From positions 1 to 52,362 of the IMG/VR virus record IMGVR_UViG_3300028027_000073: a stretch of DNA of 52,362 bases. One strand, 5' to 3'. Shown here piece after piece: positions 1 to 40,997 of the stretch (positions are counted from its first letter, which is position 1; every line of letters starts with the position of its first letter). Source of the DNA: a virus. Its lineage: Duplodnaviria; Caudoviricetes. The position numbers and the translations under genes were made by a program. The notes beneath the pieces are model-generated. The model did not search any database, was not told the DNA's origin, and saw only the letters and a program-made list of their open reading frames with translations.

Positions 1-35
1 ACGTCATTTTTATCTCCTTTATTTAACGTAAAGCG

Positions 36-64
36 ATATTAACATGTATAAAAATTATAGTCAA
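36..64 (-). promoter_or_regulatory. Leftward sigma70-type promoter (arm A)
   Basis: Minus strand TTGACT-17 nt-TAATAT with TG extension, upstream of an AAGGAG RBS and an ATG at the window edge. Confidence 0.6.
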
Positions 65-107
65 CTAATATAAAAGTCGGATAAATACCCCCCTATTAAA
101 ATACTTG

Positions 108-136
108 TTGACATAAAAATTGACTAGGAGTATAGT
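108..136 (+). promoter_or_regulatory. Rightward early sigma70-type promoter (arm A)
   Basis: TTGACA-17 nt-TATAGT, followed by AGGAG RBS and ATG at 161. Confidence 0.75.
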
Positions 137-160
137 GGCTGTTCTAGTTTAGGAGTGGAT

Positions 161-292
161 ATGAAGGTAGATAGATTTATGCGTATTATCACTAATGACA
201 GGCTACAAAAAAAGTTTACACAAAAGTTCTATTATGTGGTAAAGTGGTTTTTAGTAATATTTTGGGGATATTTTTTATGGCACATTCTTTAA
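161..292 (+). CDS. Small early membrane protein (43 aa)
   Basis: Hand-translated MKVDRFMRII...KWFLVIFWGYFLWHIL; AGGAG RBS; C-terminal hydrophobic helix. Confidence 0.65.
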   Translation: MKVDRFMRIITNDRLQKKFTQKFYYVVKWFLVIFWGYFLWHIL

Positions 293-474
293 AACATATA
301 TCAGTTATTCTTGCTGATCTTGTAAAAGAGCTTAAAGAAGATAATGACAAATGGGAGAAAGCAAATGAGTCAAAGACAACATTACGATCAAATAATGATG
401 GAGCAACACCAGAAGGAAGTATTAGAAACATTACATTATGTAACAGGGGAGAAGAAGATGAGCATACACAGTAA
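277..474 (+). CDS. Hypothetical protein
   Basis: LKHISVILADLVKELKE resembles LKPISEILEDVWKELKE at 39099. Confidence 0.55.
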   Translation: MAHSLKHISVILADLVKELKEDNDKWEKANESKTTLRSNNDGATPEGSIRNITLCNRGEEDEHTQ

Positions 475-877
475 GTTAATGCAAGCAAGATTAAAGTTAC
501 AAACAGCAGACCTTAAAAAGTCTGGTCATAATAAATTTGCAGGATACAAGTATTTTGAGTTAGGTGATTTCTTACCTACTATTCAAGAGATTTGTAATGA
601 GGTAGGTATTTGTGGCACAGTAACATTTTATACAGACATTGCAGTTTTAACTATTACAGACATGGATGATGCTACACAATTTATTGAGTTTAAATGCCCT
701 ATGTCTTCAGCAGCTTTAAAAGGTTGCCATGATGTGCAAAATCTAGGTGCAGTTCAAACTTATTTGCGTAGATATTTATGGACTAATGCTTTTGAGATTG
801 TAGAGCATGATGCTATTGACGCTAGTGCAGGTGCTGTTATTAAAATGAAAGATACTAAAGCAGAGGACTTTATCTAA
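458..877 (+). CDS. ERF-family single-strand annealing protein
   Basis: YKYFEL and GAVQTYLRRY motifs; start chosen from the GGGGAG RBS and the arm B homolog. Confidence 0.85.
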   Translation: MSIHSKLMQARLKLQTADLKKSGHNKFAGYKYFELGDFLPTIQEICNEVGICGTVTFYTDIAVLTITDMDDATQFIEFKCPMSSAALKGCHDVQNLGAVQTYLRRYLWTNAFEIVEHDAIDASAGAVIKMKDTKAEDFI

Positions 878-1479
878 TGGAACAACGATCAGAAGAGTGG
901 TTTCAAGCAAGGCTCGGTTTGGTTACAGCCAGTCGTGTAGCTGATGTATTAGCAAAGATTAAGAGCGGTGAATCTGCATCTAGACGTAACTACAAAATTC
1001 AACTAGTAAGCGAAAGGCTTACAGGTGAAAGGCAAGAAACATATATTAATCAAGCAATGCAAGACGGTATAGATAGAGAGCAATTTGCTAGAGATAGATA
1101 TGTGCAACAATTCGGGGAAGTGGAAGAAGTAGGGTTTATTCAACACCCTACTTTGGAAGCTGGTGCTAGTCCAGATGGTCTTGTAGGTACAGATGGGATT
1201 ATTGAAATTAAATGTCCTATGGGAAGTACCCATACAGAAACATTGATGACACAAGATATTCCAAGTAAGTACATTCCTCAAGTCCAGTTTCAACTTTTGG
1301 TTACAGGTCGTAAGTGGTGCGATTTTGTAAGCTATAACCCAATGTTTCCAGAGCATTTACAGGTATTTGTAAAGCGTATAGAAGCAGATCCAGTGTATCA
1401 AAAAGAGCTTGAGTCAGAAGTAAAACAATTCTTGGAAGAAGTAGATACAATCATAAATAAACTTAAGGAGATTAAGTAA
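877..1479 (+). CDS. YqaJ/lambda-exonuclease family protein
   Basis: QRSEEWFQARLG..TAS, GASPDG, EIKCP, QVQFQL motifs. Confidence 0.92.
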   Translation: MEQRSEEWFQARLGLVTASRVADVLAKIKSGESASRRNYKIQLVSERLTGERQETYINQAMQDGIDREQFARDRYVQQFGEVEEVGFIQHPTLEAGASPDGLVGTDGIIEIKCPMGSTHTETLMTQDIPSKYIPQVQFQLLVTGRKWCDFVSYNPMFPEHLQVFVKRIEADPVYQKELESEVKQFLEEVDTIINKLKEIK

Positions 1480-1679
1480 TGTTTAATGATATAGAAAGGC
1501 AAATGTTAATTAAAGCGTCTAGTGGATTACATGCAGAAACATTTCATTCATTAGATATTGAAGAGCAAGAGAAGCAAATGGAAAAGTTAGATAAAGTTAT
1601 TGGTCAGTTAATTAAACGTAATCCTGATAACTTTACAGGTAGCACAGTAGCAAATTTTTATAAAACACAAGGAAAATAA
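1479..1679 (+). CDS. Hypothetical protein
   Basis: Coupled ORF with AAGGAG RBS. Confidence 0.6.
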   Translation: MFNDIERQMLIKASSGLHAETFHSLDIEEQEKQMEKLDKVIGQLIKRNPDNFTGSTVANFYKTQGK

Positions 1680-1680
1680 A

Positions 1681-1911
1681 ATGGCAGAATATGACAACAC
1701 AAACACGTTTACTTTATTTAAGAATGACAAAGGTGACAATCCTAAACGACCAGATTACACAGGTATTGCTAACGTAGATGGTATTGAATTTAGAATTAGT
1801 GGCTGGATTAGAGAAAGTGCTAAAGGTAAGTTTATTAGTGGATCTGTACAACTAAAAGATGGTGATGTTAAGCCTAAACAAGCAGCAGTAGATGAGGATG
1901 TTCCTTTTTAG
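1681..1911 (+). CDS. Small ssDNA-binding-like protein
   Basis: NPKRPDYTG, SGW and acidic DEDVPF tail; occupies the position of ssb in arm B. Confidence 0.7.
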   Translation: MAEYDNTNTFTLFKNDKGDNPKRPDYTGIANVDGIEFRISGWIRESAKGKFISGSVQLKDGDVKPKQAAVDEDVPF

Positions 1912-1921
1912 GAACACCCTC
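1894..1921 (-). terminator. 12-bp hairpin at the pqqA 3' end, overlapping the SSB tail codons
   Basis: Minus strand GAGGGTGTTCCT-AAAA-AGGAACATCCTC (one G-U pair); no U-tract. Confidence 0.45.
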
Positions 1922-1932
1922 TCTAAATGTTA

Positions 1933-2004
1933 TTACTTGTTCATAACGTACATAGTTACTTCAAAGCCAAAACGCATTTCAGTTGCTGATGGTGATGTCC
2001 ACAT
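1933..2004 (-). CDS. pqqA: Coenzyme PQQ precursor peptide PqqA (MWTSPSATEMRFGFEVTMYVMNK)
   Basis: Hand translation; MWT.P...RFGFEVTMY signature with E-x-x-x-Y; AAGGAG RBS 6 nt upstream; second copy at 40823. Confidence 0.95.
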   Translation of the reverse strand: MWTSPSATEMRFGFEVTMYVMNK

Positions 2005-2048
2005 AGTTTGCTCCTTGTTTATGACATACAAAATTGTTTGTCTAGCAA

Positions 2049-2077
2049 ATTATGCTGTTTTTGCAATACAAAAGCAA
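2049..2077 (-). promoter_or_regulatory. Putative pqqA promoter
   Basis: Minus strand TTGCTT-17 nt-CATAAT. Confidence 0.45.
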
Positions 2078-2120
2078 GTAAGAAATATTTATATTACCCT
2101 AATGAAAATACGGAGACATT

Positions 2121-2450
2121 ATGGAAGAGATTATAGATTTTGATGACAATAGTGTGTTGGCACATACCCCAGAAGGTAAATTGCTAACATGTATACTAAC
2201 GCAAGCAGTAGAAGATGCTTTATATAGACACGCACCTAATAAATCAGGTACTAAAAATATGAAGTATCATCATAAGATTAATTTTGAAAACAAAATAGAC
2301 GCTATTAAATGGTTGTTTACTAATAGCGAATTATTAGATTCATGTTGTTTTGTAGTAAACGTGCATAAAGATTCTATTAGAAAAAAGATAATAGATATTA
2401 TAGGTGCAGATGTTATTCATCCACTTGTGTATAATGTTTACAAACCATAA
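2121..2450 (+). CDS. Hypothetical phage protein (arm A only)
   Basis: GGAG RBS; coupled to the next gene. Confidence 0.7.
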   Translation: MEEIIDFDDNSVLAHTPEGKLLTCILTQAVEDALYRHAPNKSGTKNMKYHHKINFENKIDAIKWLFTNSELLDSCCFVVNVHKDSIRKKIIDIIGADVIHPLVYNVYKP

Positions 2451-2839
2451 TGGACATGCAACTGACAGAGCATGACGTTCATTGTATAGCTACAGCAGTC
2501 TATACAGAAGTCAATACACAATCACTACAAGAAAAACTAGGAGTTATTCATGTGATTGCCAATAGAATAAGGTCTAAAAGATTTGGCAAAGATGCTTGTG
2601 AGGTTGTATATAGTCGTGGGCAGTTCATAGGGGTAGAAAACTATGTAAATGGTAAGCAATCTAAACCCGATCAAAAAATGTTTTTAGAAACTCAATTACT
2701 GGTACTTGACACATTAGTTTTTAAGAAGTATGCTAACCCAGTTGCAAATAGCTTGTATTTTCATGATGATAGTATAGATATGCAATTTATTTGGAATAAA
2801 AAGAAAGTAGTCCACATAGGAAGGATGGTATTTTATTAA
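2450..2839 (+). CDS. SleB/Hydrolase_2-family cell wall hydrolase
   Basis: CIATAVYTE, VIANR, C.VVY..GQF, LYFH, IGRMVFY motifs. Confidence 0.85.
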   Translation: MDMQLTEHDVHCIATAVYTEVNTQSLQEKLGVIHVIANRIRSKRFGKDACEVVYSRGQFIGVENYVNGKQSKPDQKMFLETQLLVLDTLVFKKYANPVANSLYFHDDSIDMQFIWNKKKVVHIGRMVFY

Positions 2840-3069
2840 TGAAACCGTTAGCATGGCTTGTAGAAGAGTTTGATAGCACAGGTAAACTTGTATGGTCTGG
2901 TCTTATGACTTCAGAACCTACGGAACTTTCATGGTTAAAAGACCTTAAATTAAAACTTCATAATGTTACGATAACACCATTAATACCAGATACCAAAAAT
3001 ATTGTAAAAGTAACTAATGTTAAAAAATATGATAGCAAAAAACTAACGGAGGCTTACGGTGGCAACTAA
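2839..3069 (+). CDS. Hypothetical protein
   Basis: PLAWLVEEFD...ITPL, homologous to 41387..41632. Confidence 0.65.
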   Translation: MKPLAWLVEEFDSTGKLVWSGLMTSEPTELSWLKDLKLKLHNVTITPLIPDTKNIVKVTNVKKYDSKKLTEAYGGN

Positions 3070-3796
3070 ACCAAATTTATTTATAGCAACACCAATGTAT
3101 GGAGGTTTATGTTATGGCACTTATTTAGAGTCTATGCTTAAACTGCAAGCATGGCTTAATGCTAAAGACATAGAAGCATACTTTTCATTTTTGTATAATG
3201 AAAGCCTTATTACTCGTGGTCGTAATACATTAGTGAATGACTTCTTAAAGGGTGACGCTACACACTTAATGTTTATTGATGCTGACATACAGTTTGAGGC
3301 ACAACACTTATTAAAGATGATTGACTCTGATGTAGAGATTATATGTGGCTTGTATCCTAAAAAAGAAATTAATTGGGGTGCAGTATCTTTTGCTATTGAA
3401 AAGAAAGTGCCACAGGATCAACTTAAATACTTTACTGGCGAGTATGTAGTAAATATGGTTGGCGATGTTGAGAAACAACTTGTGCCATTAGATAAGCCAT
3501 TTGAGATTAAACATGGTGGCACTGGATTTATGTTGATTAAACGTGAAGTATTTGAAAAGCTCAAAGACAAGTGTCCATCTTATACACATAACATGAATGA
3601 TGTAAATGATAACTCTGATTTAGGTGACAAGGTTACAGAATACTTTACCACTAGCATTGATGACCGAAATCATTTATTAAGTGAGGATTATCATTTCTGT
3701 AAACTAGCTAGGGATAATGGTATTAAGGTTTGGGGTGCAGCATGGGCACAACTAGGTCACACAGGCACTTATCAATTTAGTGGCAGGCTTGTATGA
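3059..3796 (+). CDS. GT-A fold glycosyltransferase-like protein
   Basis: IATPMYGG, SLITRGRN, LMFIDAD (DxD), GTGFMLI, SEDYHFC. Confidence 0.8.
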   Translation: MATKPNLFIATPMYGGLCYGTYLESMLKLQAWLNAKDIEAYFSFLYNESLITRGRNTLVNDFLKGDATHLMFIDADIQFEAQHLLKMIDSDVEIICGLYPKKEINWGAVSFAIEKKVPQDQLKYFTGEYVVNMVGDVEKQLVPLDKPFEIKHGGTGFMLIKREVFEKLKDKCPSYTHNMNDVNDNSDLGDKVTEYFTTSIDDRNHLLSEDYHFCKLARDNGIKVWGAAWAQLGHTGTYQFSGRLV

Positions 3797-4377
3797 TTAT
3801 ACCTAATGACATGATTAGCCATGTAGGTAAGATATTTCAAGGTGAATATGCTATAGAAGGTATAGGAAAAAGCCCTTATATTATAGACATTGGTGCTAAC
3901 GTAGGTGGATTTGCAGTATGGGCACATGAATACTTTGATAAACCAAAGATAGATTGCTATGAGCCTATAAAAGCTAACTATAGTTTATTAAGGCAAAATA
4001 CAGCAGGAACTGATATAGCTATTAGAAACTTTGCTATTGGTAAAGAAGATGGTGAGCGTATGATGTACTACGGATTAAATAACTGTGGTGAAGCTAGTAT
4101 GTTTCAAGGCAAAGAACAAAGAGCAGAAGGTGAAATGGTTAAAGTAATGTCTGCTAAACACTTGCCAGAGTGTGCCATCATGAAAATAGATACTGAAGGT
4201 GCAGAAATAGAGATACTAGAGAACTTGACTGTACAACCAGTAGTATTTCTTATAGAATTCCATAGTGCATGGAATAGAAGACGTATAGATGAATTATTGT
4301 ATGACTATACCTTGATAGATTGCACAATGCGTGGTTATAATTACGGAATCTTAAAGTACTTAAGAGGTAAATTTTAA
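3793..4377 (+). CDS. FkbM-family methyltransferase
   Basis: IDIGANVG, YEP, KIDTEGAE motifs. Confidence 0.9.
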   Translation: MIIPNDMISHVGKIFQGEYAIEGIGKSPYIIDIGANVGGFAVWAHEYFDKPKIDCYEPIKANYSLLRQNTAGTDIAIRNFAIGKEDGERMMYYGLNNCGEASMFQGKEQRAEGEMVKVMSAKHLPECAIMKIDTEGAEIEILENLTVQPVVFLIEFHSAWNRRRIDELLYDYTLIDCTMRGYNYGILKYLRGKF

Positions 4378-4389
4378 AAGGAGAATCAT

Positions 4390-4668
4390 ATGGATAATAT
4401 CAATCATCCAAAGCATTACTTGGTAGGTGGTATAGAAGCAATAGATGTTATTGAAAGTCGCTTGACAAAAGAAGAGTTTATTGGATACCTAAAAGGCTGT
4501 AAAATGAAATACGACTTACGCTACCCTTTTAAAGGCAAGTTTGAAGAAGATTTAGACAAGTCTGAATGGTATAAAAATAAACTATTAGAAATAGTTAAAG
4601 ATGAAGATGTTGTTAATCCACCAGAGGTTGCTGCTCAATTACAAAGACTAGAAATGGTTGATGATTAA
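4390..4668 (+). CDS. DUF3310/SaV-like protein
   Basis: INHPKHY..GGIEAIDVI...KY..R...EDLDKSEWY. Confidence 0.85.
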   Translation: MDNINHPKHYLVGGIEAIDVIESRLTKEEFIGYLKGCKMKYDLRYPFKGKFEEDLDKSEWYKNKLLEIVKDEDVVNPPEVAAQLQRLEMVDD

Positions 4669-5170
4669 CATTCCGATCAAGGATGAAATTGTTAGTCATT
4701 GTAGAAGTTTACTAAAAAAAACTAACTTTGGTAATAGAGGTGTTGCTGATGGCAATGCCTCTGAACAGTTAAGAGGTATTGTAGGTCAGTCTGTTGTTTT
4801 AGATTTTTTAGGATTACCATTCATTGAATCTAATGGATTTGATAATGGAATAGATTTTACATATAAAGATAAAACGTATGATGTAAAAACTATGGGAAGA
4901 AATTGTGAGCCAAAGCCATATTTTGTAAATAATCTAATTGGATTGCAAGATAAATACAAAGTAGATAGATACATATTTTGTAGTTTAAATAGAACCAATA
5001 TGATATTAACTATTTGTGGCTGGATAGATAAAAATGATTTTATTGAAAAAGCTAGTTTTTATAAAAAAGGTACTGTAAGAACTAGAAGTGATAATACATT
5101 TTTTCAAACAAAAGCTGATTTGTATGAATTACAAAACAAAGAATTGAATGATTTTAGTTTAATCGTCTAG
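4658..5170 (+). CDS. Putative PD-(D/E)XK nuclease-like protein
   Basis: GIDF...YDVKT motif; very AT-rich; arm A only. Confidence 0.5.
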   Translation: MMINIPIKDEIVSHCRSLLKKTNFGNRGVADGNASEQLRGIVGQSVVLDFLGLPFIESNGFDNGIDFTYKDKTYDVKTMGRNCEPKPYFVNNLIGLQDKYKVDRYIFCSLNRTNMILTICGWIDKNDFIEKASFYKKGTVRTRSDNTFFQTKADLYELQNKELNDFSLIV

Positions 5171-5326
5171 TTCTGGCACTTCTGAATAAACGGAAAGCCC
5201 ATCACCACTAATTTCAATGTGGCTTCCGTCATCTAACATTATAATAAGCACGTCTTCACCGTAATAGGCTTCTGCTTCTACTACCATTTTGCCTACCATG
5301 TGCTCACATAACTGTTGAATGTTCAT
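5159..5326 (-). CDS. Small acidic hypothetical protein
   Basis: Homolog at 42885..43061 (C.HM.G, LDD...IEISG). Confidence 0.7.
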   Translation of the reverse strand: MNIQQLCEHMVGKMVVEAEAYYGEDVLIIMLDDGSHIEISGDGLSVYSEVPELDD

Positions 5327-5334
5327 AATTTTCC

Positions 5335-6072
5335 TTATATGCTGATAACTGATTCTTTTGTAACTTGTTCTGATTTCACTGATCTGCTCCATTTACCACA
5401 TCCTTGACATTGGAATCGTTGATAGTGTCGTGATAAATTAACTGCTGAACCACGCTTTTGTAATTTGCTAGAACCGCAATTTGGACATACTGTATTTGCG
5501 GAATACGCATTGTGGTTAGGATGATTTTTAATCCATGCTTTAAACTTGTCATAAACTTTTTCAAGTAGTACTACATCGTTTTTATTGTACTCTTCCATAG
5601 TCTTCCAAGCTTTACGATCATCGTTCATACACTTAACCCACAATGTATGACCTTCATGTTCTGTTTTAGAACCTAAACCTAAAGCCTGTGATACATAATC
5701 TAGTTTGTTAGAAACAAACCTAAATTGTCTACGAGCTACTTGTAATAAATCTATCTGTTTGGCAGGTGCTGGAGGCGGCATACCTGCTAATAAGAATTCT
5801 TTGTGTAGTATGGGTATGTCAAACCTAGAACCGTTGTAATGGACTATAGCATCAGCTTCATCAAGAAGTTTATGCACAGAGTCTAGCATCTTTTGTTTGC
5901 CAGATTTTTGAATAGAATCAAACATGATTTTAGATTCACCGTACCACTTGGCTGCATAGCAAAGGGTATAAGATGATTCTAATAATTGATTTATAGAGAT
6001 GTTCTGGTCAAAGATACCCCAGACATGAGCAGTATTTGGTGCTACTTCTATATCAATAAGTAAAATTTTCAT
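5335..6072 (-). CDS. RNase H-like (DnaQ/YprB-type) exonuclease with C-terminal Zn ribbon
   Basis: LIDIE, HYNGSRFD, NKLDYV, YNKNDV; CPNC...CQGC. Confidence 0.85.
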   Translation of the reverse strand: MKILLIDIEVAPNTAHVWGIFDQNISINQLLESSYTLCYAAKWYGESKIMFDSIQKSGKQKMLDSVHKLLDEADAIVHYNGSRFDIPILHKEFLLAGMPPPAPAKQIDLLQVARRQFRFVSNKLDYVSQALGLGSKTEHEGHTLWVKCMNDDRKAWKTMEEYNKNDVVLLEKVYDKFKAWIKNHPNHNAYSANTVCPNCGSSKLQKRGSAVNLSRHYQRFQCQGCGKWSRSVKSEQVTKESVISI

Positions 6073-6099
6073 AATAACCTTTAGTTATAAGTTTACTTA

Positions 6100-6549
6100 T
6101 TATATACCAAGAAATAGTCTGCGTTCATCCAATCTTCTGTTTTGTAAGCCTTTTAGGACTTTACCACCAGCTCTACAATATTTAACTAGCGATTCCATAG
6201 CCGTTTCTTTATCGCCACGAAGCAACGCTTGACGGATGGTTGAACGCTGAAAGCATCCAAGACCCAGATTAAAGCAAAAGCTGACAAGAGCGTCAAACTC
6301 ATGTTGTCGTAAAGGCACGTTAGGTAACATCTTATGTACTCCCAACTCAAAACGGTTGAGGTCTCGTTTAAGAATTGCATCTATTTCCTCGTTAGTAAAT
6401 GTTTTGTTCCATTCAGGCGGTAATGTTTTTCCATCACCAATCAAATGACCAATTCCCACTGTCCATAGTTTTGCGGGACACTGGTATGGTTTGTTTCTAA
6501 CACCTTCATGATGTCGGATTAACTTAATTGCCTCTTTAGATACTTTCAC
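6100..6549 (-). CDS. Endolysin, GH24 phage lysozyme
   Basis: HEGVR..PYQC..WTVGIGH, FDALVSFCFNLG, GLQNRR; GTG start assumed. Confidence 0.92.
   Translation of the reverse strand: MKVSKEAIKLIRHHEGVRNKPYQCPAKLWTVGIGHLIGDGKTLPPEWNKTFTNEEIDAILKRDLNRFELGVHKMLPNVPLRQHEFDALVSFCFNLGLGCFQRSTIRQALLRGDKETAMESLVKYCRAGGKVLKGLQNRRLDERRLFLGI
6186..6380 (-). CDS. Candidate overprinted membrane protein nested in the lysozyme gene (64 aa)
   Basis: GAGGA RBS 5 nt before ATG; TM segment plus basic tail; intact in both arms. Confidence 0.45.
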   Translation of the reverse strand: MQFLNETSTVLSWEYIRCYLTCLYDNMSLTLLSAFALIWVLDAFSVQPSVKRCFVAIKKRLWNR

Positions 6550-7033
6550 GTTTCTTTTCCCAAGTGCGAGAACCAAAGTAAAAGCCAATAATACTTGCAG
6601 TAATAGCCATTTCTTCAGAGCCAAATACTTCTTGTGAAGCTACAACAAAGTCAACACCTGACCACATAGCCCATACCAAAGAAATAAGGTTGATAAGCAC
6701 TAACTCCCCTACAAAGATGAAAGCGACTACAGGTCTAACCATAGCGTTCCAGTTCTTAACTGTAGGGCTTGCATTTTCTACTAGCTTCTTATCGTGGTCG
6801 TATAATGCTTCACGTTCTTGTGCGTATGTTTGAACTTCTATTTGGTCTAGCTTAATAGCTTCTATCTTTTCTTGTGATATAAAGCCTGCTTTAGCTAATT
6901 CTAATTCACGTTCTGTTTGTAGTTTAGCCATTTCTCTTTCATGCTTTTGGTCACCTTTTTGCTGAAAGAAACCTAAAACACTGGGTAAGCCTGAAGTAGC
7001 AAAACCTAATATACCTGATAAAATACTTAACAT
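6536..7033 (-). CDS. Holin (3TM/GTA-holin-like)
   Basis: VRP..., hydrophobic segments, IIGFYFGSR C-terminus; overlaps the lysozyme gene. Confidence 0.75.
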   Translation of the reverse strand: MLSILSGILGFATSGLPSVLGFFQQKGDQKHEREMAKLQTERELELAKAGFISQEKIEAIKLDQIEVQTYAQEREALYDHDKKLVENASPTVKNWNAMVRPVVAFIFVGELVLINLISLVWAMWSGVDFVVASQEVFGSEEMAITASIIGFYFGSRTWEKKRESI

Positions 7034-7393
7034 CTATAACTCCTTTGGATCAAAGCCATACATTTTGGCTACACGTTTTTGTAATTTAAGAAACAAGCCT
7101 TTATGACTTGTGTACTGCTCTGTTTTTGGTGAAACTGTATATACACACATATGCAATATTTCATGGCAAAGTGTAATTAACACAGGGTATAAGTGAGAAT
7201 GTCTTGCAGTAGATATAGTAATAACATGTGGCTCACCTTGTTCTGGTGGTTGATATTCTCCACATATAGCATTGTCATTTACGATAACAAAGTCTACTTT
7301 AGATGCTGGTGGTAATTTGTATTCATCAAATATAGGCATCTCTATAATTGCACTATAGAGGTTAGCTATATTATTTTCTGTAATGAATGTCAT
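7034..7393 (-). CDS. Small zincin-like (SprT-like) metallopeptidase
   Basis: TLCHEILH plus downstream H...F. Confidence 0.65.
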   Translation of the reverse strand: MTFITENNIANLYSAIIEMPIFDEYKLPPASKVDFVIVNDNAICGEYQPPEQGEPHVITISTARHSHLYPVLITLCHEILHMCVYTVSPKTEQYTSHKGLFLKLQKRVAKMYGFDPKEL

Positions 7394-7797
7394 TTTGATA
7401 ATGGGTTCATTGTGCTACGTTTAACAGTATTTAGTTTATCATCCATTGCGTTTACGGTTGCTTCTAATTCTTTACGCAGACCTGATACCATAGCTGAAGT
7501 CTCACGAGAGTTGGCAATAGCGTCTGAAGACTTTTCACTAGCTTTCATAATAGATTCAGATAGTTGGTATTGTCTTTCATTTATTGCTTTAACTTGTATT
7601 TCTAAACCATTTAATTTAGACTCTATGGGAGCTAAATCTAAACTGTCAACAGCTTCAATTGCCGTAACCATCTTGTTGTAAAAAGTTATGCCTGCGTATG
7701 CCGAGCCAGCTACTATTGGCAATGCTATTAAAATCAATTTCAGAAGTGCCGAGCTGGATAAGCTCAAGCTGAAGGTTTTGATTTTTTCCGAACTCAT
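7390..7797 (-). CDS. Membrane-anchored coiled-coil protein
   Basis: N-terminal TM, heptad-rich C-terminus; 134/135 identical to 45092..45499. Confidence 0.8.
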   Translation of the reverse strand: MSSEKIKTFSLSLSSSALLKLILIALPIVAGSAYAGITFYNKMVTAIEAVDSLDLAPIESKLNGLEIQVKAINERQYQLSESIMKASEKSSDAIANSRETSAMVSGLRKELEATVNAMDDKLNTVKRSTMNPLSK

Positions 7798-8728
7798 TGT
7801 TTATCTCCGTATCAAATTTAAATGCGTCTGTTATTTCTATTTGTTGTATAATAGGTTTGTTAAGTATTTCTAATGAAAGGACTATTCCAAAACCATGTAC
7901 AAGCTCTTTACCCTTTGGTACGTCAAGTTTAGGACTCTCCTTGCTCTCATTCTTTTGTTCAGTCTTTGGTGGGTCTTTTGGGCTGTCTTCTTTTGCTTTT
8001 GGCTCACTTTTAGTTTCTTGTTTTGGTTGTTCAACCTTAACAGGAGCTGACTCTACTTTAGGTGGTTCAGGTGCAGCTAATGGGTTTACTTCTGGAGCAA
8101 CAGCAGGTGGTGGTGCAGGAGGTGGATTATTTACAGGGTTAAGGGGTGAGCTAGGGCTAACTGGAGAACTCACGTTAGTGACGTTTGTAGCACTCTTAAC
8201 ACATGTATTGTTTGTTTCTACCCAACCATTCCATACAGGACTTCCATAAGGGTCTGGGCAAGATGAAATGTTAGTTTCTGTAATAGAACCTACATAGTCT
8301 GCTTGACAGGCTAGTTGCCTAGTTTCAACACTTGCCTGACACGTTGGAGGGTCTTGTGTGCAGTTGTTGCTAGTTTCTGTCCAAGCTGACCAGCTTTGCG
8401 TAGAACAACTAAAATTCCTGCTTTGATTAACAGCACCGCTATAGTGAGGTAACGTACAAGCTGTGGTTTGATTTTCAACCAAGTCTGAACAAGCAGGTGT
8501 TTGATACGCACCGCATATTGGGTCACTTGGGTTATAAGATACGCACCAATAGTCTTTAATTGCAATGATTGGATCAATGCCATGACATACGAGAGAACCT
8601 TGAAGCATATAGCCTTCAGGCGTTGGAGTATAGTTGCAATACCAAGCATAAGCATTATTTACCTTTGTTAATGATAGAAGTAGTAATAGGCTCGTCAGCA
8701 ACAAGCGGTATCGTGTATGTATCGCCAT
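7655..8728 (-). CDS. Secreted Cys-rich protein with Pro/Lys/Glu-rich linker
   Basis: Signal peptide (RYRLLLTSLLLLLSL..AYA); Cys conserved in arm B; W-x-x-W-x-E-T-x-N-x-C repeats. Confidence 0.8.
   Translation of the reverse strand: MAIHTRYRLLLTSLLLLLSLTKVNNAYAWYCNYTPTPEGYMLQGSLVCHGIDPIIAIKDYWCVSYNPSDPICGAYQTPACSDLVENQTTACTLPHYSGAVNQSRNFSCSTQSWSAWTETSNNCTQDPPTCQASVETRQLACQADYVGSITETNISSCPDPYGSPVWNGWVETNNTCVKSATNVTNVSSPVSPSSPLNPVNNPPPAPPPAVAPEVNPLAAPEPPKVESAPVKVEQPKQETKSEPKAKEDSPKDPPKTEQKNESKESPKLDVPKGKELVHGFGIVLSLEILNKPIIQQIEITDAFKFDTEINNEFGKNQNLQLELIQLGTSEIDFNSIANSSWLGIRRHNFLQQDGYGN
8311..8655 (-). CDS. Candidate overprinted cationic amphipathic protein (114 aa)
   Basis: TAATG coupling to the upstream stop; same length in both arms; no Asp/Glu. 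Confidence 0.5.
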   Translation of the reverse strand: MLMLGIATILQRLKAICFKVLSYVMALIQSLQLKTIGAYLITQVTQYAVRIKHLLVQTWLKIKPQLVRYLTIAVLLIKAGILVVLRKAGQLGQKLATTAHKTLQRVRQVLKLGN

Positions 8729-9161
8729 ATAGTTTCTTGAATATAGAAGGGTTACGTTCATACCAACCACGTTTAGCAGCATCACCAATAGAACCATTTA
8801 TAGGACATGGTGAGCCTGACTGTATCATGGCTTCAAATACTCTATCGTCTTGACACAAGATAGATACTGCTGCAACTTTAAGACCTAAATCATTAAGAGT
8901 TTTAGCCAGTTTAATGCGTTCACAATTAACGTCTTTATAGCCAGAGCCACCACTTAAGCCAAACAATGTACTAGATACAGAACCAGTAACAGGAACAATA
9001 CAAACGTCTTGGCTAAAAGCACTTATAGAAGGGCTAATGGCACTAGGTGGTGGTTGACCTTTATAGTTAATAGTAGTAGTATCAGCGTGTGCAGTATGAA
9101 CCATAAATAAAACAAGTAAAACAATAATTGTCCAACTAAATATTTTAGAAAATGTTTTCAT
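8655..9161 (-). CDS. Secreted protein with four Cys
   Basis: Signal peptide ending AHA; mature part nearly identical in arm B despite a different signal peptide. Confidence 0.85.
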   Translation of the reverse strand: MKTFSKIFSWTIIVLLVLFMVHTAHADTTTINYKGQPPPSAISPSISAFSQDVCIVPVTGSVSSTLFGLSGGSGYKDVNCERIKLAKTLNDLGLKVAAVSILCQDDRVFEAMIQSGSPCPINGSIGDAAKRGWYERNPSIFKKLYGDTYTIPLVADEPITTSIINKGK

Positions 9162-9162
9162 G

Positions 9163-9321
9163 TTACATAAATTTATGAGTTAATAGAAATACAATCACAA
9201 AACCTGCTGTTCCTAATAGTATTTGTTCTAAACGTTTGAGTCTTGCATTTATTTGTTCATAGCGTAAAGCACATACTTCTTCGTGTGTACTCAATCTTGA
9301 TTCTACGTCTGACTTCACCAT
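9163..9321 (-). CDS. Small coiled-coil plus TM protein (52 aa)
   Basis: Hand-translated MVKSDVESRLSTHEEVCALRYEQINARLKRLEQILLGTAGFVIVFLLTHKFM; homolog at 46869. Confidence 0.8.
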   Translation of the reverse strand: MVKSDVESRLSTHEEVCALRYEQINARLKRLEQILLGTAGFVIVFLLTHKFM

Positions 9322-9322
9322 C

Positions 9323-9385
9323 TTATCCTTTCGGAGCATTATATAAGTTTATAGGGGGTAGGTATAAATCGTGCCATTCAATCAT
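9323..9385 (-). CDS. Possible 20-aa peptide MIEWHDLYLPPINLYNAPKG
   Basis: ATGA overlap with the upstream stop; fills the intergenic gap; absent in arm B. Confidence 0.35.
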   Translation of the reverse strand: MIEWHDLYLPPINLYNAPKG

Positions 9386-11001
9386 TGTTGATTTTGATAC
9401 ATTTTATCTAATTGTTGTAAGTATAAATCTGGCTCTAATAAACTTTGAGCCTCTTGTACTTTCTTAAGCTGTACACCTGCTTTAGCTGTTAAGTCAATAG
9501 GTGTTCCATATCTAGCTACTTTGCCACCAGCTTGAGTTAGCAATCCAGTAATTTTAGGCGATGTAATACCAATACCAAGTGCTGTTAATGGGCTTAATCC
9601 AGTACCAAATGCAATATTAAGTAACCCACCAGCACCACCCAAAGTACCAAGAACACTTTTTGGTTCAAAAGATTTCATAGATGCACCAGCAATTTCTGTA
9701 GATAAATCAATGCCAGTAGCCTTTTGCATTTTATCAGCAAGTGATAATTTAACACCAGTTTCATCACGAGTTGTTCTTAATAATTTTCTTAATGCTGTTT
9801 CTTGAGATGCTTTATTTCCACCAATAAGACCTCTGTCAATCTCTCTAATAGTTTCAATAGAGTTTTCGTAATCTGCCATTGCTTTTTTGTACTCTGGCAC
9901 TTCTTTAACAAGGTAGTTTTTTACACCATTACGAGTGGTGTCTATAACTCTTTGTGCTTGAGTCATCTTTACATCGTCTGGATACACAGCATCTATTCTT
10001 TGTTTTAAAAAGTCTAAACCAGCTGCTGTATGTAATTTAGGTTGAGATTCCCATGTATTAAGAATTTTCTCTACTTCATTAATTGCTGCTAATTCTTTAT
10101 CACCAACACTTACTTGACCTTTGTAAGTAATAGATTTTTTAGCATTATCAAAAGTTTCTCTAATTGGAGCAAAGTCTAATTTAGCTGGACTTGCAGCCCA
10201 TCCAGTATCTGTACCTTTAAATTGGCTTGATTTTTTAGCTGTTGAATATTGCAAATTTTTCTGTGCAATCATTTCTTGTAAACCAGCTTTTGCTTTATTT
10301 AATATTTCTATTGATTCTGTTTTTCCTACAATTTGATTAATTGCAGTATCAATACCAGCTTTAGAAGCTTCATATACTTTTTTAATAGCTTCACCACCAA
10401 CACCAGTTGTTAATCCTAGTATTGGAGGAAGACCAGCTTCTAGCACTTTACCGCTCATATATAATGGATTTGTTACTTTAGATAACTCTGAAAATCCTAC
10501 AGCAGGTGTAGTTACTTGCCTCTCTGTAAATGGAACTTTGCCTGTAACAGATGGAATTTTGTATGGCACAGCTTTAGATGCAATACCAGCACCTGTAGAT
10601 ATATCAAGCAATGCCTCTACTGGTCTTTCTTGAGCATATTGTTTAAATGATTCTGCACTTTGGTACGGTGCTGCAAATGCTCTAAACATTTCTTCTTGTC
10701 TAGATACTGGCATTTTTTCCAATACTTTTTCTGGAGAATACATTTGACCTAAACTTTTTCTTGCTGCTGCTTGTGCACCTCCAGCAAGAGTTTCACCAGC
10801 TGCATAACCAACTTGTGGTGCGTTAGTGATTACATTGTAGCCACCACGCAATATATCCAATAAGTTTTGAGGCACATTTGCACCAGCTTGTAAAAAAGAA
10901 AAGTTTGTTGGAACATCGGCTACAGCACCTGCTTTTAATGGACCAGATGTAGTAATGTCTGGAACTTTATTTTGCGTTAATTTATATAAATCTTCAGCCA
11001 T
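9382..11001 (-). CDS. Putative DNA ejection/internal virion protein
   Basis: Last gene of the ejection cluster; Ala/Gly-rich helical protein with glycine-zipper segments. Confidence 0.65.
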   Translation of the reverse strand: MAEDLYKLTQNKVPDITTSGPLKAGAVADVPTNFSFLQAGANVPQNLLDILRGGYNVITNAPQVGYAAGETLAGGAQAAARKSLGQMYSPEKVLEKMPVSRQEEMFRAFAAPYQSAESFKQYAQERPVEALLDISTGAGIASKAVPYKIPSVTGKVPFTERQVTTPAVGFSELSKVTNPLYMSGKVLEAGLPPILGLTTGVGGEAIKKVYEASKAGIDTAINQIVGKTESIEILNKAKAGLQEMIAQKNLQYSTAKKSSQFKGTDTGWAASPAKLDFAPIRETFDNAKKSITYKGQVSVGDKELAAINEVEKILNTWESQPKLHTAAGLDFLKQRIDAVYPDDVKMTQAQRVIDTTRNGVKNYLVKEVPEYKKAMADYENSIETIREIDRGLIGGNKASQETALRKLLRTTRDETGVKLSLADKMQKATGIDLSTEIAGASMKSFEPKSVLGTLGGAGGLLNIAFGTGLSPLTALGIGITSPKITGLLTQAGGKVARYGTPIDLTAKAGVQLKKVQEAQSLLEPDLYLQQLDKMYQNQQ

Positions 11002-11009
11002 GTTTTATC

Positions 11010-12536: not shown

Positions 12537-12538
12537 GA

Positions 12539-14388: not shown

Positions 14389-14398
14389 ATCTAGTTCC

Positions 14399-14797
14399 TT
14401 AAAGTGTATATTCCCATGTTTGAGGTTTAAAACCCATCTGTCTTGCTTTACGTTCCCATCCACGTCTTTCGGAGTTAAACGTAACTTTAGTTTTACCGCC
14501 TTGTTTTGCTATTTGTTGAATCTCTTGAAATGCTTGTGTAAAGAGTGCCTCATCATTAATTAATGACCATGCAGCCCATACATGAAGCCTGTTTCCGATT
14601 GGTTGAAGTACTACGAATCCTACTGGTTTATTGTCTATTATTCCCATAAACAACATAGAACGTTGCTCATAGCAATCACAATATACATCTTCTGGTATAT
14701 ACTCGGTATGACCTTTAGACCTGACTATTTCTAATCCGTGTCTAATGTATTCCCAATGTTGACGTAAATTATCTTTAGGTATGTAATGTAAAATCAC
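14399..14797 (-). CDS. GNAT-fold-like virion assembly protein (P22 gp14/T7 gp13-like position)
   Basis: GFVVL, LHVWAAW, S.RRGW.R....GF; lies between tail and ejection genes. Confidence 0.6.
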   Translation of the reverse strand: MILHYIPKDNLRQHWEYIRHGLEIVRSKGHTEYIPEDVYCDCYEQRSMLFMGIIDNKPVGFVVLQPIGNRLHVWAAWSLINDEALFTQAFQEIQQIAKQGGKTKVTFNSERRGWERKARQMGFKPQTWEYTL

Positions 14798-25974: not shown

Positions 25975-26009
25975 AGTAAAAATAATAGAGGGAGAATTAA
26001 CTCCCCCTA
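25975..26009 (-). terminator. Intrinsic terminator after the major capsid gene
   Basis: TAGGGGGAG-TTAATT-CTCCCTCTA followed by TTATTTTT. Confidence 0.7.
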
Positions 26010-26027
26010 CTATATCACATCTAGTTA

Positions 26028-39811: not shown

Positions 39812-40410
39812 GTCATTTAACCGACAATAGACGTCATAATATTATTACAGCTAGCAATGCTTGGTCTGCTGTGTATGAGAGACAAAAATTATGGCGTCAA
39901 ATGACTTTAAGAGAAGCTCCATTTGAAGGCAATGAAATGACTGAATGGGGTAATCTTAACGAACATCTTGCTATTTGTGAGTTTGAAAAAGCTATGGGAG
40001 AGATTACTGAAACTGGTAATAAGTTAATTGTTCATCCTGATTTACCATTAGGTGCAAGTCCAGATGGATTCTTAAATAGGCTGCCAATAGAAGCAAAGTG
40101 TCCTTATAGCCAAGAGTTTTATGGTATGATTCCAGACCGTTATTATTTCCAAACACAGTTACAAATGGAAGTATGTGGTGCTCCAAGATGTTATTTTGTA
40201 GTGTGGACACCAAAAGGAATTACTATACAAATTATTGAAAGAAGTAAAGAATGGTTTGACTGGTATAAACCTTTAGCGTTAGAATTTATGAAGTTTGTAG
40301 AAGATGATGTAGAGCCTACTCGTTGGAAACGCAAACCCATATTTGATATAGATTTGAAAGAAGATAAATTATTATTTCCAAAGGAGCAACAAGATGGCAT
40401 CAGTAAATAA
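39808..40410 (+). CDS. YqaJ-like exonuclease (different subtype from arm A)
   Basis: ITAS, WG..NE, GASPDG, EAKCP, QTQLQM. Confidence 0.88.
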
Positions 40411-40798
40411 AGCAATTATCGTAGGTAATTTAGGGAAAGACCCAGAGGTTAAATTTTTAACTAATGGTGACGCTGTGTGTAGTTTTAGTATTGCTACTAC
40501 TGACAGTTGGAAAGATAAAGCAGGTCAAAAGCAAGAAAAAACAGAATGGCATAACATTGTTATGTATAGAAAGTTAGCTGAAATTGCTGGTGAGTATCTT
40601 AAAAAAGGCAGTCCAGTATACGTTGAAGGTGCTTTACAAACTCGTAAATGGACTAATAAAGAAGGTCAAGATAAATATACAACTGAAATTGTAGCAAACA
40701 GTATGCAAATGTTAGGCGGTAAAACTTTACAACAAGAACAAAATAATACTAGAAGTGGTCCTGCTATTGAAGGGGCAGATGAGGACGTGCCATTTTAA
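40394..40798 (+). CDS. ssb: Single-stranded DNA-binding protein
   Basis: [38 protein letters not shown]. Confidence 0.95.
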
Positions 40799-40811
40799 AG
40801 CACATCCCCAT
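40779..40811 (-). terminator. 12-bp hairpin at the pqqA 3' end
   Basis: Minus strand ATGGGGATGTGC-9 nt-GCACGTCCTCAT (two G-U pairs). Confidence 0.45.
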
Positions 40812-40822
40812 TAGCATGATAA

Positions 40823-40894
40823 CTATTTGTTCATTACGTACATAGTTACTTCAAAGCCAAAACGCATTTCTGTAGCTGCTGGAGTTGTCCACAT
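40823..40894 (-). CDS. pqqA: Coenzyme PQQ precursor peptide PqqA (MWTTPAATEMRFGFEVTMYVMNK)
   Basis: Hand translation; E-x-x-x-Y core; AAGGA RBS; TATAAT at 40945-40950. Confidence 0.95.
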   Translation of the reverse strand: MWTTPAATEMRFGFEVTMYVMNK

Positions 40895-40997
40895 GGTATT
40901 TATCCTTAAGTAATATATTATGCTTAATTGCACAATATAATGGAATTATACGCTTATGTGGGTTTGCTAGACACCAGATAATCATTAAAGGTAGATA

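What the first reader, a model, noticed from the sequence alone, without database searches (positions are those of the whole stretch)
1933..2004. Phage-encoded PqqA: stand-alone precursor peptide for the methanol-dehydrogenase cofactor PQQ (arm A)
Seen: a 23-codon ORF missed by the ORF track, MWTSPSATEMRFGFEVTMYVMNK, with a strong RBS and its own promoter-like element, oriented against the early operon. No pqqB-E genes are present. Known: PqqE/PqqD cross-link the Glu and Tyr of E-x-x-x-Y, and PqqA is consumed stoichiometrically; PQQ is the cofactor of XoxF/MxaF methanol dehydrogenases. Inference: the phage supplies the consumable substrate to boost host methanol oxidation, and the host is probably Methylophilaceae. 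A decoy that sequesters PqqD/E is an alternative. I recall metagenomic mentions of viral pqqA, so it may not be wholly new, but I know of no functional test.
Basis: partly seen in the sequence, partly recalled or inferred. Interest (0 to 1): 0.9.

Follow-up and report, generated by a model that had tools for sequence, protein, structure and literature searches.

The report
Stand-alone pqqA gene in methylotroph phage
A 23-codon gene in this phage genome is a genuine copy of pqqA, the peptide from which methanol-eating bacteria make their PQQ cofactor; viral pqqA was already reported in 2020, but it sits unlabelled in nine of the ten cultured-phage records of these bacteria that I found it in (the tenth was not inspected).

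Summary
The ORF at 1933-2004 (-) is real and reads exactly as reported. It is a PqqA: Pfam PF08042 38.8 bits (cut-off 21.1), TIGR02107 34 bits (cut-off 20). It has an AAGGAG ribosome site and a stable hairpin after its stop. A second copy lies at 40823-40894 (-), because the record is about 1.4 genome lengths with two diverged arms. The window is a tailed phage with no PqqB, C, D, E, methanol dehydrogenase or integrase. The peptide type is that of Methylophilaceae, whose genomes carry 1-12 mostly unlinked pqqA matches. The same gene occurs in at least 120 IMG/VR contigs, under purifying selection (pN/pS 0.26), with conservation confined to the ORF and its ribosome site. tblastn also finds it in P19250A, Venkman, MEP301, MEP401/402 and four Melnitz records; no pqqA CDS is annotated in the nine inspected (MEP401 was not). 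Most likely the phage supplies precursor peptide to the host's PqqBCDE enzymes; this is inferred, not shown. Viral PqqA was published in 2020 (Lake Baikal), so the kind is known. The promoter claim was not confirmed, and expression of the phage copy could not be separated from other pqqA transcripts.

The parts
1933..2004 (-). pqqA, arm A copy: 23 codons plus TAA stop, peptide MWTSPSATEMRFGFEVTMYVMNK, with the Glu15-x3-Tyr19 pair
   Evidence: ORF; PF08042, 38.8 bits vs 21.1; TIGR02107, 34 bits vs 20; six-frame scan of the record
2011..2016 (-). Shine-Dalgarno AAGGAG, 6 nt before the ATG
   Evidence: An SD-like motif is present in 108 of 108 distinct viral upstream stretches
1889..1925 (-). Stable RNA hairpin starting 8 nt after the pqqA stop; it overlaps the last codons of the convergent gene 1681-1911. 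Probable terminator or 3' stabiliser, but it has no U-run
   Evidence: -22.9 kcal/mol, z -5.27, 0 of 200 shuffles fold as well. The consensus terminator scan did not call it
40823..40894 (-). pqqA, arm B copy: peptide MWTTPAATEMRFGFEVTMYVMNK, identical to the peptide of phage P19250A and to the commonest Methylophilaceae peptide
   Evidence: PF08042, 40.3 bits; 25 of 123 viral and 56 of 127 bacterial matches carry this peptide
40903..40907 (-). Shine-Dalgarno AAGGA, 8 nt before the ATG of the arm B copy
40775..40815 (-). Stable RNA hairpin after the arm B pqqA stop, overlapping the last codons of the SSB gene. The stem sequence differs from arm A but still pairs
   Evidence: -23.5 kcal/mol, z -4.54, 0 of 200 shuffles fold as well
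1681..1911 (+). Context: convergent 76-aa gene ending in an SSB-like acidic tip (DEDVPF); no Pfam family
40394..40798 (+). Context: convergent SSB gene (134 aa) in arm B
   Evidence: PF00436, 142 bits
344..1479 (+). Context: phage recombination module, ERF (344-877) and YqaJ exonuclease (877-1479). The same module lies near pqqA in arm B and in P19250A, Venkman and MEP301
2121..2450 (+). Context: divergent 109-aa gene of unknown family, followed by a cell-wall hydrolase (2450-2839)

Best explanation
The ORF is a functional, self-contained pqqA gene carried by a lytic-type tailed phage of Methylophilaceae. The phage brings only the 23-residue precursor peptide. The host keeps the machinery: PqqD and PqqE to cross-link Glu15 and Tyr19, then a protease, PqqB and PqqC. 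In these hosts pqqA is normally multi-copy and unlinked to pqqBCDE, so a copy supplied in trans from a phage genome would be used like any host copy. One peptide is consumed per PQQ molecule. A phage copy would therefore keep or raise precursor supply, and so PQQ for XoxF/MxaF methanol dehydrogenase, once infection cuts host transcription. Shown: identity, translation signals, purifying selection, presence in several unrelated methylophage lineages, absence of the other pqq genes, and the host's pqq gene layout. Inferred: expression during infection, processing to PQQ, and any gain in methanol oxidation.
For: Identity: PF08042 38.8 bits (cut-off 21.1) and the TIGR02107 equivalog 34 bits (cut-off 20). 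The record holds two matches. Phage setting: SU10-type capsid and portal, terminase, lysozyme, ERF, YqaJ and SSB. Stand-alone: PqqC in 0 of 51 records (the window, P19250A and 49 IMG/VR records), against 4 of 4 Methylophilaceae controls. PqqE, PqqB and PqqD are absent from the window and P19250A and present in the host controls. Methanol dehydrogenase is absent from the window. Selection: 120 of 120 IMG/VR pattern hits read a full PqqA-like frame. In 103 distinct ORF DNAs, pN/pS is 0.26 over the 14 codons the search pattern did not fix; W2, P5 and R11 are invariant, and Arg is coded by both CGN and AGA. Conservation is 1.8 bits at codon positions 1 and 2, 1.2 at position 3, and 0.1-0.3 in the flanks; an SD-like motif occurs in 108 of 108. 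Spread: the loci fall into local gene-content groups of 68, 18 and 14 plus 14 smaller groups. tblastn finds the gene in P19250A, Venkman, MEP301, MEP401, MEP402 and four Melnitz records; the five isolate peptides tested, plus the window's arm B copy, all pass Pfam (6 of 6). Host logic: 69 of the 80 listed genome hits with this peptide type name Methylophilaceae or Methylophilales taxa. All 61 of 61 genomes of that family have PqqA matches, 1-12 each, median 5. In Ca. Methylopumilus universalis the three matches lie at least 119 kb from pqqBCDE. Beck et al. 2014 report 3-12 pqqA copies against one pqqBCDE (PMC4109929, passages read). Transcript unit: stable hairpins follow the stop in both arms. 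Such hairpins occur in 68% of 113 viral and 87% of 119 bacterial loci, against 21-23% of upstream control stretches.
Against: There is no direct evidence that the phage copy is transcribed or translated. In four lake metatranscriptome runs the very deep contigs match only 1933-2004 and then diverge at both ends, so they come from other pqqA loci. The phage-specific contigs have ordinary depth, and DNA carry-over cannot be excluded. No sigma-70-like promoter was found upstream, and such sites are not clearly enriched across 113 viral loci: 11% reach 10 of 12, against 5% of shuffles. Hosts already carry several pqqA copies, and PQQ is a stable, tightly bound cofactor (general knowledge), so the size of any benefit is uncertain. 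The viral and bacterial sets were picked by a pattern that fixes 8 (viral) or 12 (bacterial) codons, so divergent or decayed copies were not sampled. Some named Methylophilales phages gave no hit (MEP431-434, phiMB624-A, HIM624-A, Venkman EXVC038S, MG-MTP1, RSA-MFP1), and I could not tell whether they are in the collection. Only 50 of the 120 IMG/VR records were searched for methanol dehydrogenase, and 49 for PqqC.
Confidence: 0.62

Rival explanations
1. Decoy: the phage peptide ties up PqqD/PqqE and lowers host PQQ synthesis.
For: It is a stand-alone peptide with no processing enzymes in the phage.
Against: The arm-B and P19250A peptides are identical to the commonest Methylophilaceae peptide (25 of 123 viral and 56 of 127 bacterial matches). 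Arm A differs only at positions 4 and 6, which also vary among the other viral copies. Glu15 and Tyr19 are kept in all 103 distinct viral ORFs, though the search pattern required this. A peptide indistinguishable from the substrate is a substrate.
Confidence: 0.04
2. Neutral passenger: a small host fragment picked up by recombination and carried without benefit to the phage.
For: The ORF DNA is 92-99% identical to its best bacterial hits. The phage has an ERF/YqaJ recombination module next to the gene.
Against: Only the ORF and its SD are conserved, while the flanks are unrelated. pS is 0.51 and pN 0.13. The gene sits in many gene contexts and in unrelated virion types: the SU10-like window, siphovirus P19250A, Zobellviridae MEP402 and Kyanoviridae Melnitz. 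A neutral 72-nt insert would not stay intact in 120 of 120 hits, although the hits were chosen by an intact 8-codon core.
Confidence: 0.08
3. Homology patch: the 72-nt stretch serves as a target for recombination with the host's many pqqA loci (integration, transduction or gene exchange) rather than as a coding gene.
For: Hosts carry 1-12 dispersed matches. An ERF/YqaJ module lies beside the gene in the window, P19250A, Venkman and MEP301.
Against: Selection acts on the protein, not the DNA: third positions vary freely and Arg11 uses both CGN and AGA. Only 1 of 103 distinct viral ORF DNAs is identical to any of the sampled bacterial ORF DNAs. No tyrosine integrase is present in 0 of 5 records. 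The SD is conserved in 108 of 108. In MEP402 and Melnitz no such module is annotated within the 2.5-kb flanks shown.
Confidence: 0.04
4. A real, expressed PqqA whose benefit to the phage is something other than methanol oxidation. Examples: PQQ for other quinoproteins, PQQ as a secreted or antioxidant molecule, or a regulatory effect of the peptide or its mRNA.
For: Identity and selection as above. The tools give no evidence for which PQQ-dependent process matters. Only 1 of 50 pqqA-bearing viral records also carries a methanol dehydrogenase.
Against: The streamlined host checked has XoxF-type dehydrogenase as its clear PQQ enzyme: one match above the cut-off in G050. The gene is found almost only in phages of obligate methylotrophs among 50,697 phage records: 10 of the 12 hit records name Methylophilales or Methylophilaceae.
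Confidence: 0.15

Closest known systems
Bacterial PqqA (Pfam PF08042, NCBIfam TIGR02107), in particular the multi-copy, unlinked pqqA genes of Methylophilaceae
   Same: Same length (23 aa), same conserved residues (W2, P5, R11, E15-x3-Y19), an SD site and a hairpin after the stop. The arm-B peptide is identical to the commonest Methylophilaceae peptide. Host copies are often stand-alone too (PMC4109929).
   Different: It sits in a phage genome between phage replication and recombination genes, with no pqqB-E anywhere in the record. The arm A peptide (S at positions 4 and 6) was not seen among the other 121 viral or the 127 bacterial matches.
Viral PqqA of Lake Baikal viral population VP_266 (Coutinho et al. 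2020, PMC7678222; passages read)
   Same: A PqqA precursor peptide on a phage predicted to infect Methylophilaceae, proposed to boost methanol oxidation.
   Different: VP_266 also encodes a methanol dehydrogenase and a peptide deformylase. This window has no methanol dehydrogenase, and only 1 of 50 pqqA-bearing IMG/VR records searched has one. That paper states that P19250A encodes none of these genes, but an unannotated pqqA lies at KX815270.1 28082-28153.
Cyanophage psbA (recalled knowledge; an analogy only, not homology)
   Same: The phage carries the one high-turnover, consumable part of a host energy system and relies on the host for the rest.
   Different: psbA encodes a structural photosystem protein and its expression in infection is shown experimentally. 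Here the product is a cofactor precursor peptide and nothing has been tested.

Membership tests
PqqA (PF08042 / TIGR02107) | Profile match above the curated cut-off | tested here: met
   PF08042 38.8 bits vs 21.1; TIGR02107 equivalog 34 bits vs 20; arm B 40.3 bits
PqqA (PF08042 / TIGR02107) | Short peptide with a Glu and a Tyr spaced E-x-x-x-Y, the pair cross-linked by PqqE (PMC10906245, passages read) | tested here: met
   23 aa with E15-V-T-M-Y19 in both copies
PqqA (PF08042 / TIGR02107) | A translatable gene kept by selection on the peptide | tested here: met
   AAGGAG 6 nt before the ATG; SD-like motif in 108 of 108; pN/pS 0.26 at codons not fixed by the search pattern; flanks not conserved
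PqqA (PF08042 / TIGR02107) | Adjacent to pqqBCDE. This is typical in many bacteria but is not a defining feature: Methylophilaceae carry unlinked copies | tested here: not met
   No PqqB, C, D or E in the record. In Ca. Methylopumilus universalis all three host matches are also at least 119 kb from pqqBCDE
PqqA (PF08042 / TIGR02107) | Binds PqqD and is cross-linked by PqqE, then converted to PQQ | not testable with these tools
   The peptide is under the 30-residue minimum of the complex predictor, so no job was sent. No PqqA chain was found in the PDB
Phage auxiliary metabolic gene | Lies inside a bona fide phage genome with phage genes on both sides, and is homologous to a host metabolic gene | tested here: met
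   ERF, YqaJ, hydrolase, lysozyme, SU10 capsid and portal, terminase; host homologues
Phage auxiliary metabolic gene | Expressed during infection | tested here: inconclusive
   RNA-library contigs cover the phage region, but the deep pqqA contigs diverge at 1932 and 2004, and contigs cannot show strand or level
Phage auxiliary metabolic gene | Changes host metabolism to the phage's benefit | not testable with these tools
   Needs infection experiments

The most novel reading that the evidence does not exclude
pqqA may be the signature auxiliary gene of phages of obligate methylotrophs, a 'psbA of methylophages'. On this reading it was acquired independently by sipho-, podo- and myovirus lineages and is present in every complete cultured Methylophilales phage genome. 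It was overlooked because gene callers skip 23-codon ORFs. It would mark precursor-peptide supply as the step of PQQ and methanol-dehydrogenase function that limits phage yield.
Probability: 0.4. Interest if true: 0.65.

Novelty: new member of a known kind. Interest (0 to 1): 0.5.

Why it matters
Methylophilaceae (LD28 in lakes, OM43 in coastal seas) are major consumers of methanol, and their energy gain depends on PQQ-dependent dehydrogenases. A phage gene that feeds PQQ synthesis would tie viral infection to C1 carbon flux. The idea is already in print for metagenomic viruses. What this work adds is that the gene is also in cultured phage-host pairs: P19250A/IMCC19250, Venkman and Melnitz on H5P1, MEP301, and MEP401/402. 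No pqqA CDS is annotated at the match in the nine of those ten GenBank records that I inspected (the MEP401 row was not checked for strand), and one paper says the gene is absent from P19250A. The hypothesis can therefore be tested directly at the bench. It is also a reminder that very short ORFs are missed in phage annotation.

Tried and rejected
PHROGs has no family for the peptide.

I used a degenerate DNA pattern instead.

Promoters. The consensus scans found no site upstream of either copy. A scan of my own over 113 viral and 119 bacterial upstream stretches showed no clear enrichment. I therefore make no promoter claim.

Terminators. The consensus scan found none. The hairpins lack a U-run, so I call them a hairpin, not a proven terminator.

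Expression. Summed depth in the 1801-2000 bin is 269-3983, against about 2-66 in nearby bins in the four RNA runs. Loose ends at 1932 and 2004 show that these contigs belong to other pqqA loci. This is not evidence that the phage copy is expressed, and contigs give neither strand nor level.

Attachment-site idea. No tyrosine integrase was found in 0 of 5 records. Serine integrases were not searched.

Other searches with no result. Rfam gave no family in the window, the PDB no PqqA chain, and ARAGORN no tRNA. DNA of the window's structural module (24000-31700) matched none of five large pqqA-bearing records; this had no positive control, so it only says they are not close relatives at the DNA level.

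Not done. No complex prediction was sent, because the peptide is below the tool's 30-residue guidance. No tree was built, because 72 nt carry too little signal. The three capped protein searches (search for homologous proteins, the search of protein representatives, the protein-atlas search) were not used. IMG/VR loci L054-L123 were not searched for methanol dehydrogenase, nor L053-L123 for PqqC.

Supplementary tables of the papers were closed, so an annotation of pqqA hidden in a supplement of the isolate papers or of Coutinho et al. cannot be excluded. The original P19250A paper (Moon et al. 2017) was not read; I know it only as reference 54 in PMC7678222.

Full report
**1. The observation**

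The minus strand of 1933-2004 carries ATG, 22 further codons and TAA. AAGGAG lies at 2011-2016 (-), 6 nt before the ATG. The gene is convergent with ORF 1681-1911 (+) and divergent from ORF 2121-2450 (+).

The peptide scores 38.8 bits on Pfam PqqA (cut-off 21.1, E 8.8e-10). It scores 34 bits on the NCBIfam equivalog TIGR02107 (cut-off 20). PHROGs has no family for it. A six-frame scan of the whole record with PF08042 gives two matches and no more: this one, and 40838-40894 (-).

**2. The second copy and the shape of the record**

The second ORF, 40823-40894 (-), reads MWTTPAATEMRFGFEVTMYVMNK. It has AAGGA 8 nt upstream and scores 40.3 bits on Pfam PqqA.

A self-comparison shows that 1-14980 is homologous to about 38800-52362 at 68-98% identity. 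The offsets are 37.4-38.8 kb, and the last 183 bases repeat 14798-14980 at 98%. The record (IMG/VR, linear, CheckV 100%) is therefore about 1.4 genome lengths. The overlapping part is present as two diverged versions, arm A and arm B.

The likeliest cause is that an assembler threaded two co-occurring strains of a genome of roughly 37-39 kb. A real concatemer is not excluded. Five other large pqqA-bearing viral records have one PqqA match each. I therefore read the two copies as one gene per genome.

**3. What the window is**

It is a tailed phage. Pfam finds these families:

- ERF, YqaJ, a cell-wall hydrolase, an FkbM-type methyltransferase and DUF3310.
- Phage lysozyme and an RNase H-like exonuclease.
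- SU10-type major capsid and portal proteins, and a DUF7483/SPRY tail protein.
- Large terminase, a PBECR5 nuclease domain, an AAA_25 helicase-like ATPase, and SSB in arm B.

There are no tRNAs and no Rfam family. G+C is 36%.

**4. Stand-alone status**

| Family | Window and P19250A | Other viral records | Host controls |
|---|---|---|---|
| PqqC (TIGR02111) | 0 of 2 | 0 of 49 IMG/VR | 4 of 4 |
| PqqE (TIGR02109) | 0 of 2 | not searched | 3 of 3 |
| PqqB (TIGR02108) | 0 of 2 | not searched | 2 of 2 |
| PqqD (PF05402) | 0 of 2 | not searched | 2 of 2 |
| Methanol dehydrogenase (TIGR03075) | 0 of 2 | 1 of 50 IMG/VR | 1 of 1 |
| Tyrosine integrase (PF00589) | 0 of 2 | 0 of 3 near-complete | rings in all 14 control genomes |

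The one viral record with a methanol dehydrogenase is a 72-kb contig (L039, handle G036). It scores 608 bits with the neighbouring pieces in the same frame.

**5. Host**

A megablast of 1-12000 against GenBank phages hit Methylophilaceae phage P19250A only at 1933-2008, at 88% identity, where nothing is annotated. Read from the DNA there, the P19250A ORF gives the same peptide as arm B; the ORF passes Pfam.

Of the 80 listed titles, 69 name Methylophilaceae or Methylophilales taxa. Ten carry only higher-rank names, and one is an Acidovorax MAG.

The commonest viral peptide (25 of 123 matches) is also the commonest bacterial one (56 of 127). The window's ORF DNAs are 94-99% identical to their best bacterial hits.

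Runs holding the window's first 6 kb are mostly lake, freshwater or subsurface metagenomes.

**6. How the hosts keep pqqA**

All 61 of 61 genomes drawn from the family of Ca. Methylopumilus universalis have PqqA matches above the cut-off. They have 1-12 matches each, median 5, and 58 of 61 have two or more.

In Ca. Methylopumilus universalis (1.3 Mb), pqqB, C, D and E lie side by side at 576.5-579.5 kb. The three PqqA matches lie at 416, 457 and 1186 kb, and the xoxF-type dehydrogenase at 1070 kb.

Beck et al. 2014 state that Methylophilaceae carry 3-12 pqqA copies against a single set of the other genes (PMC4109929, passages read). Supply of the peptide in trans from unlinked loci is thus the native arrangement.

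**7. Spread and selection in viruses**

- **Hits.** All 120 of 120 read a full PqqA-like frame.
- **Where conservation lies.** Among 108 distinct 192-nt stretches, column information is 1.77, 1.82 and 1.19 bits at codon positions 1, 2 and 3. It is 0.34 bits upstream and 0.11 downstream. All 108 have an SD-like motif.
- **Substitution pattern.** In 103 distinct ORF DNAs, over the 14 codons the pattern does not fix, pS is 0.51 and pN 0.13, a ratio of 0.26. The bacterial set gives 0.27. W2, P5 and R11 never change, and Arg11 uses both CGN and AGA.
- **Three-way alignment.** Arm A, arm B and P19250A show identity confined to the ORF and SD.
- **Gene contexts.** By shared flanking proteins the 123 viral loci fall into groups of 68, 18 and 14, plus 14 smaller groups. 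The window and P19250A are in the largest. Orientation relative to neighbours varies: pqqA is antisense to both in 44 loci and co-oriented with both in 34 of 123.

Caveat: both sets were selected by an intact peptide core, so decayed copies would be missed.

**8. Cultured phages**

tblastn of the peptide against 50,697 phage records hit 12 records:

- Venkman, MEP301, P19250A, MEP401, MEP402 and four Melnitz records.
- One uncultured freshwater phage, MW202481, which is also the window's nearest DNA relative (84.5% over 39% of the first 12 kb).
- Two weak Acinetobacter phage hits (E 0.1).

In Venkman, MEP301, MEP402 and P19250A nothing is annotated at the match. The MEP401 row also lists no feature under the match. 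In the four Melnitz rows the feature listed under the match is a 'hypothetical protein'; in the one Melnitz record I inspected it is on the opposite strand. The MW202481 row also shows a 'hypothetical protein', which I did not inspect, so I cannot say on which strand it lies.

The peptides read from the loci are:

- Venkman: MWTKPSATEMRFGFEVTMYVMNK
- MEP301: MWTSPKATEMRFGFEVTMYVMNK
- MEP402: MWTKPEAVEMRFGFEVTMYVLNK
- Melnitz: MKWTKPVAQEMRFGFEVTMYIMTR

Each has an SD-like motif. All six peptides tested (these four, P19250A and arm B) pass Pfam at 37-43 bits.

By their records or papers these phages are of different kinds: a siphovirus (P19250A), Zobellviridae (MEP402), Kyanoviridae (Melnitz) and the SU10-like window.

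The denominator is not known. NCBI taxonomy also names HIM624-A, phiMB624-A, MEP431-434, Venkman EXVC038S, MG-MTP1 and RSA-MFP1. None gave a hit, and I could not tell whether they are in the collection. HIM624-A is a partial genome without replication genes (PMC10580990). MG-MTP1 and RSA-MFP1 are metagenome-derived (PMC13059738).

**9. Transcript anatomy**

Both copies are followed within about 8-16 nt by a stable hairpin. Arm A gives -22.9 kcal/mol (z -5.3) and arm B -23.5 (z -4.5); 0 of 200 shuffles fold as well in either case. P19250A has an A/U-rich stem followed by a U-run.

The stems overlap the last codons of the convergent SSB-type genes. They differ in sequence between the arms yet still pair.

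Within 60 nt after the stop, 68% of 113 viral and 87% of 119 bacterial loci fold with z below -2. The figure is 21-23% for upstream control stretches (mononucleotide shuffles, 30 each). pqqA thus looks like a compact unit of SD, ORF and hairpin in phage and host alike.

No sigma-70-like promoter was found.

**10. Expression**

Six lake metatranscriptome runs hold 21-36% of the sampled words of 1-6000. I laid four of them.

The 1801-2000 bin has summed depths of 488, 269, 3983 and 1347, against single to double figures around it. Loose ends at 1932 and 2004 in all four runs show that these contigs match only the ORF and then diverge. They are therefore other pqqA loci, from hosts or from other phages.

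Phage-specific contigs do exist in the RNA libraries. One example is a 245-nt contig over 1989-2233 with one difference. They have ordinary depth, no strand information, and DNA carry-over cannot be excluded. Expression of the phage copy is not shown.

**11. Mechanism**

Established knowledge (PMC10906245, passages read): PqqA binds the chaperone PqqD through its N-terminal part. PqqE cross-links the Glu and the Tyr. A protease, PqqB and PqqC then finish PQQ. One peptide is used per cofactor.

The phage peptide keeps every conserved residue, and in arm B it is identical to the host's. I therefore infer that host enzymes process it as an extra substrate. This would sustain PQQ supply for XoxF/MxaF dehydrogenase when host transcription fails during infection.

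My confidence that it is a selected, functional pqqA is about 0.95. My confidence in the substrate-supply role is about 0.6.

The decoy reading is unlikely, because a peptide identical to the substrate is a substrate. The neutral-passenger and homology-patch readings are unlikely, because the conservation is at protein level and the gene recurs in unrelated phages.

**12. What is known**

Coutinho et al. 2020 reported PqqA, with a methanol dehydrogenase, in a Baikal phage population predicted to infect Methylophilaceae. They gave the same rationale, and they wrote that P19250A encodes none of these genes (PMC7678222, passages read). My contradict that last statement.

A 2026 paper lists viral pqqA among phosphorus-related auxiliary genes (PMC13188868, passages read).

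The main texts of the four isolate papers held contain no 'pqq' other than a medium recipe: PMC8163748, PMC8024684, PMC10580990 and PMC9004378. A search for pqqA together with OM43 returns only two bacterial papers. Supplements were closed, and the P19250A paper was not available.

**13. Verdict**

The kind is already in print.

The added value has three parts:

- The gene is widespread: at least 120 viral contigs.
- It recurs across unrelated methylophage lineages.
- It is present without a pqqA annotation in cultured phage-host systems where the hypothesis can be tested.

Interest 0.5; new member of a known kind.

Noticed in passing
window 1-14980 versus about 38800-52362: The record is about 1.4 genome lengths. 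Its two ends are homologous at 68-98% identity, and the last 183 bases repeat 14798-14980 at 98%. The likely cause is two strains threaded into one contig, so gene duplications in this record should not be taken at face value.
   Followed up: partly
window 1889-1925 and 40775-40815: The hairpins after pqqA overlap the codons of the acidic C-terminal tip (DEDVPF) of the convergent SSB-type genes. The stems differ in sequence between the arms but both pair. This may be a shared bidirectional transcript end.
   Followed up: partly
window 1681-1911 versus 40394-40798: In arm A a 76-aa protein with an SSB-like tail but no Pfam SSB domain occupies the slot that holds a full 134-aa SSB in arm B.
   Followed up: no
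window 3059-4377: Arm A carries a glycosyltransferase-like gene (weak Anp1 match only) and an FkbM-type methyltransferase. The self-comparison found no counterpart of this stretch in arm B. This may be a cell-surface or DNA-modification cassette.
   Followed up: no
L039 / handle G036, 34049-35731 of a 72-kb IMG/VR record: This is the only record among the 50 pqqA-bearing viral records searched that also encodes a full PQQ-dependent methanol dehydrogenase (608 bits with its neighbouring pieces in the same frame). It resembles the Baikal VP_266 type.
   Followed up: partly
KX815270.1 28082-28153; MT375522.1 9977-10045; MW452941.1 3316-3384; OP830907.1 43050-43118; MZ577097.1 about 76134-76208: No pqqA CDS is annotated at the match in these GenBank records of cultured Methylophilales phages. 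In the Melnitz record inspected, a 'hypothetical protein' is called on the opposite strand over it.
   Followed up: yes
window 1801-2000 in four lake metatranscriptome runs: Contigs matching only the pqqA ORF reach summed depths of 269-3983, far above the neighbouring bins. pqqA-type sequences are very abundant in these RNA libraries, whichever loci they come from.
   Followed up: partly
window 19825-20123 versus 21249-21547: A 300-nt internal repeat at 68.5% identity lies at the 3' ends of two adjacent minus-strand tail-region genes, that is, over their N-terminal coding parts.
   Followed up: no
window 31909-33315 and 24336-25658: A 468-aa protein with a PBECR5 nuclease domain lies next to the terminase, and a 440-aa TPR-repeat protein lies among the structural genes.
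   Followed up: no
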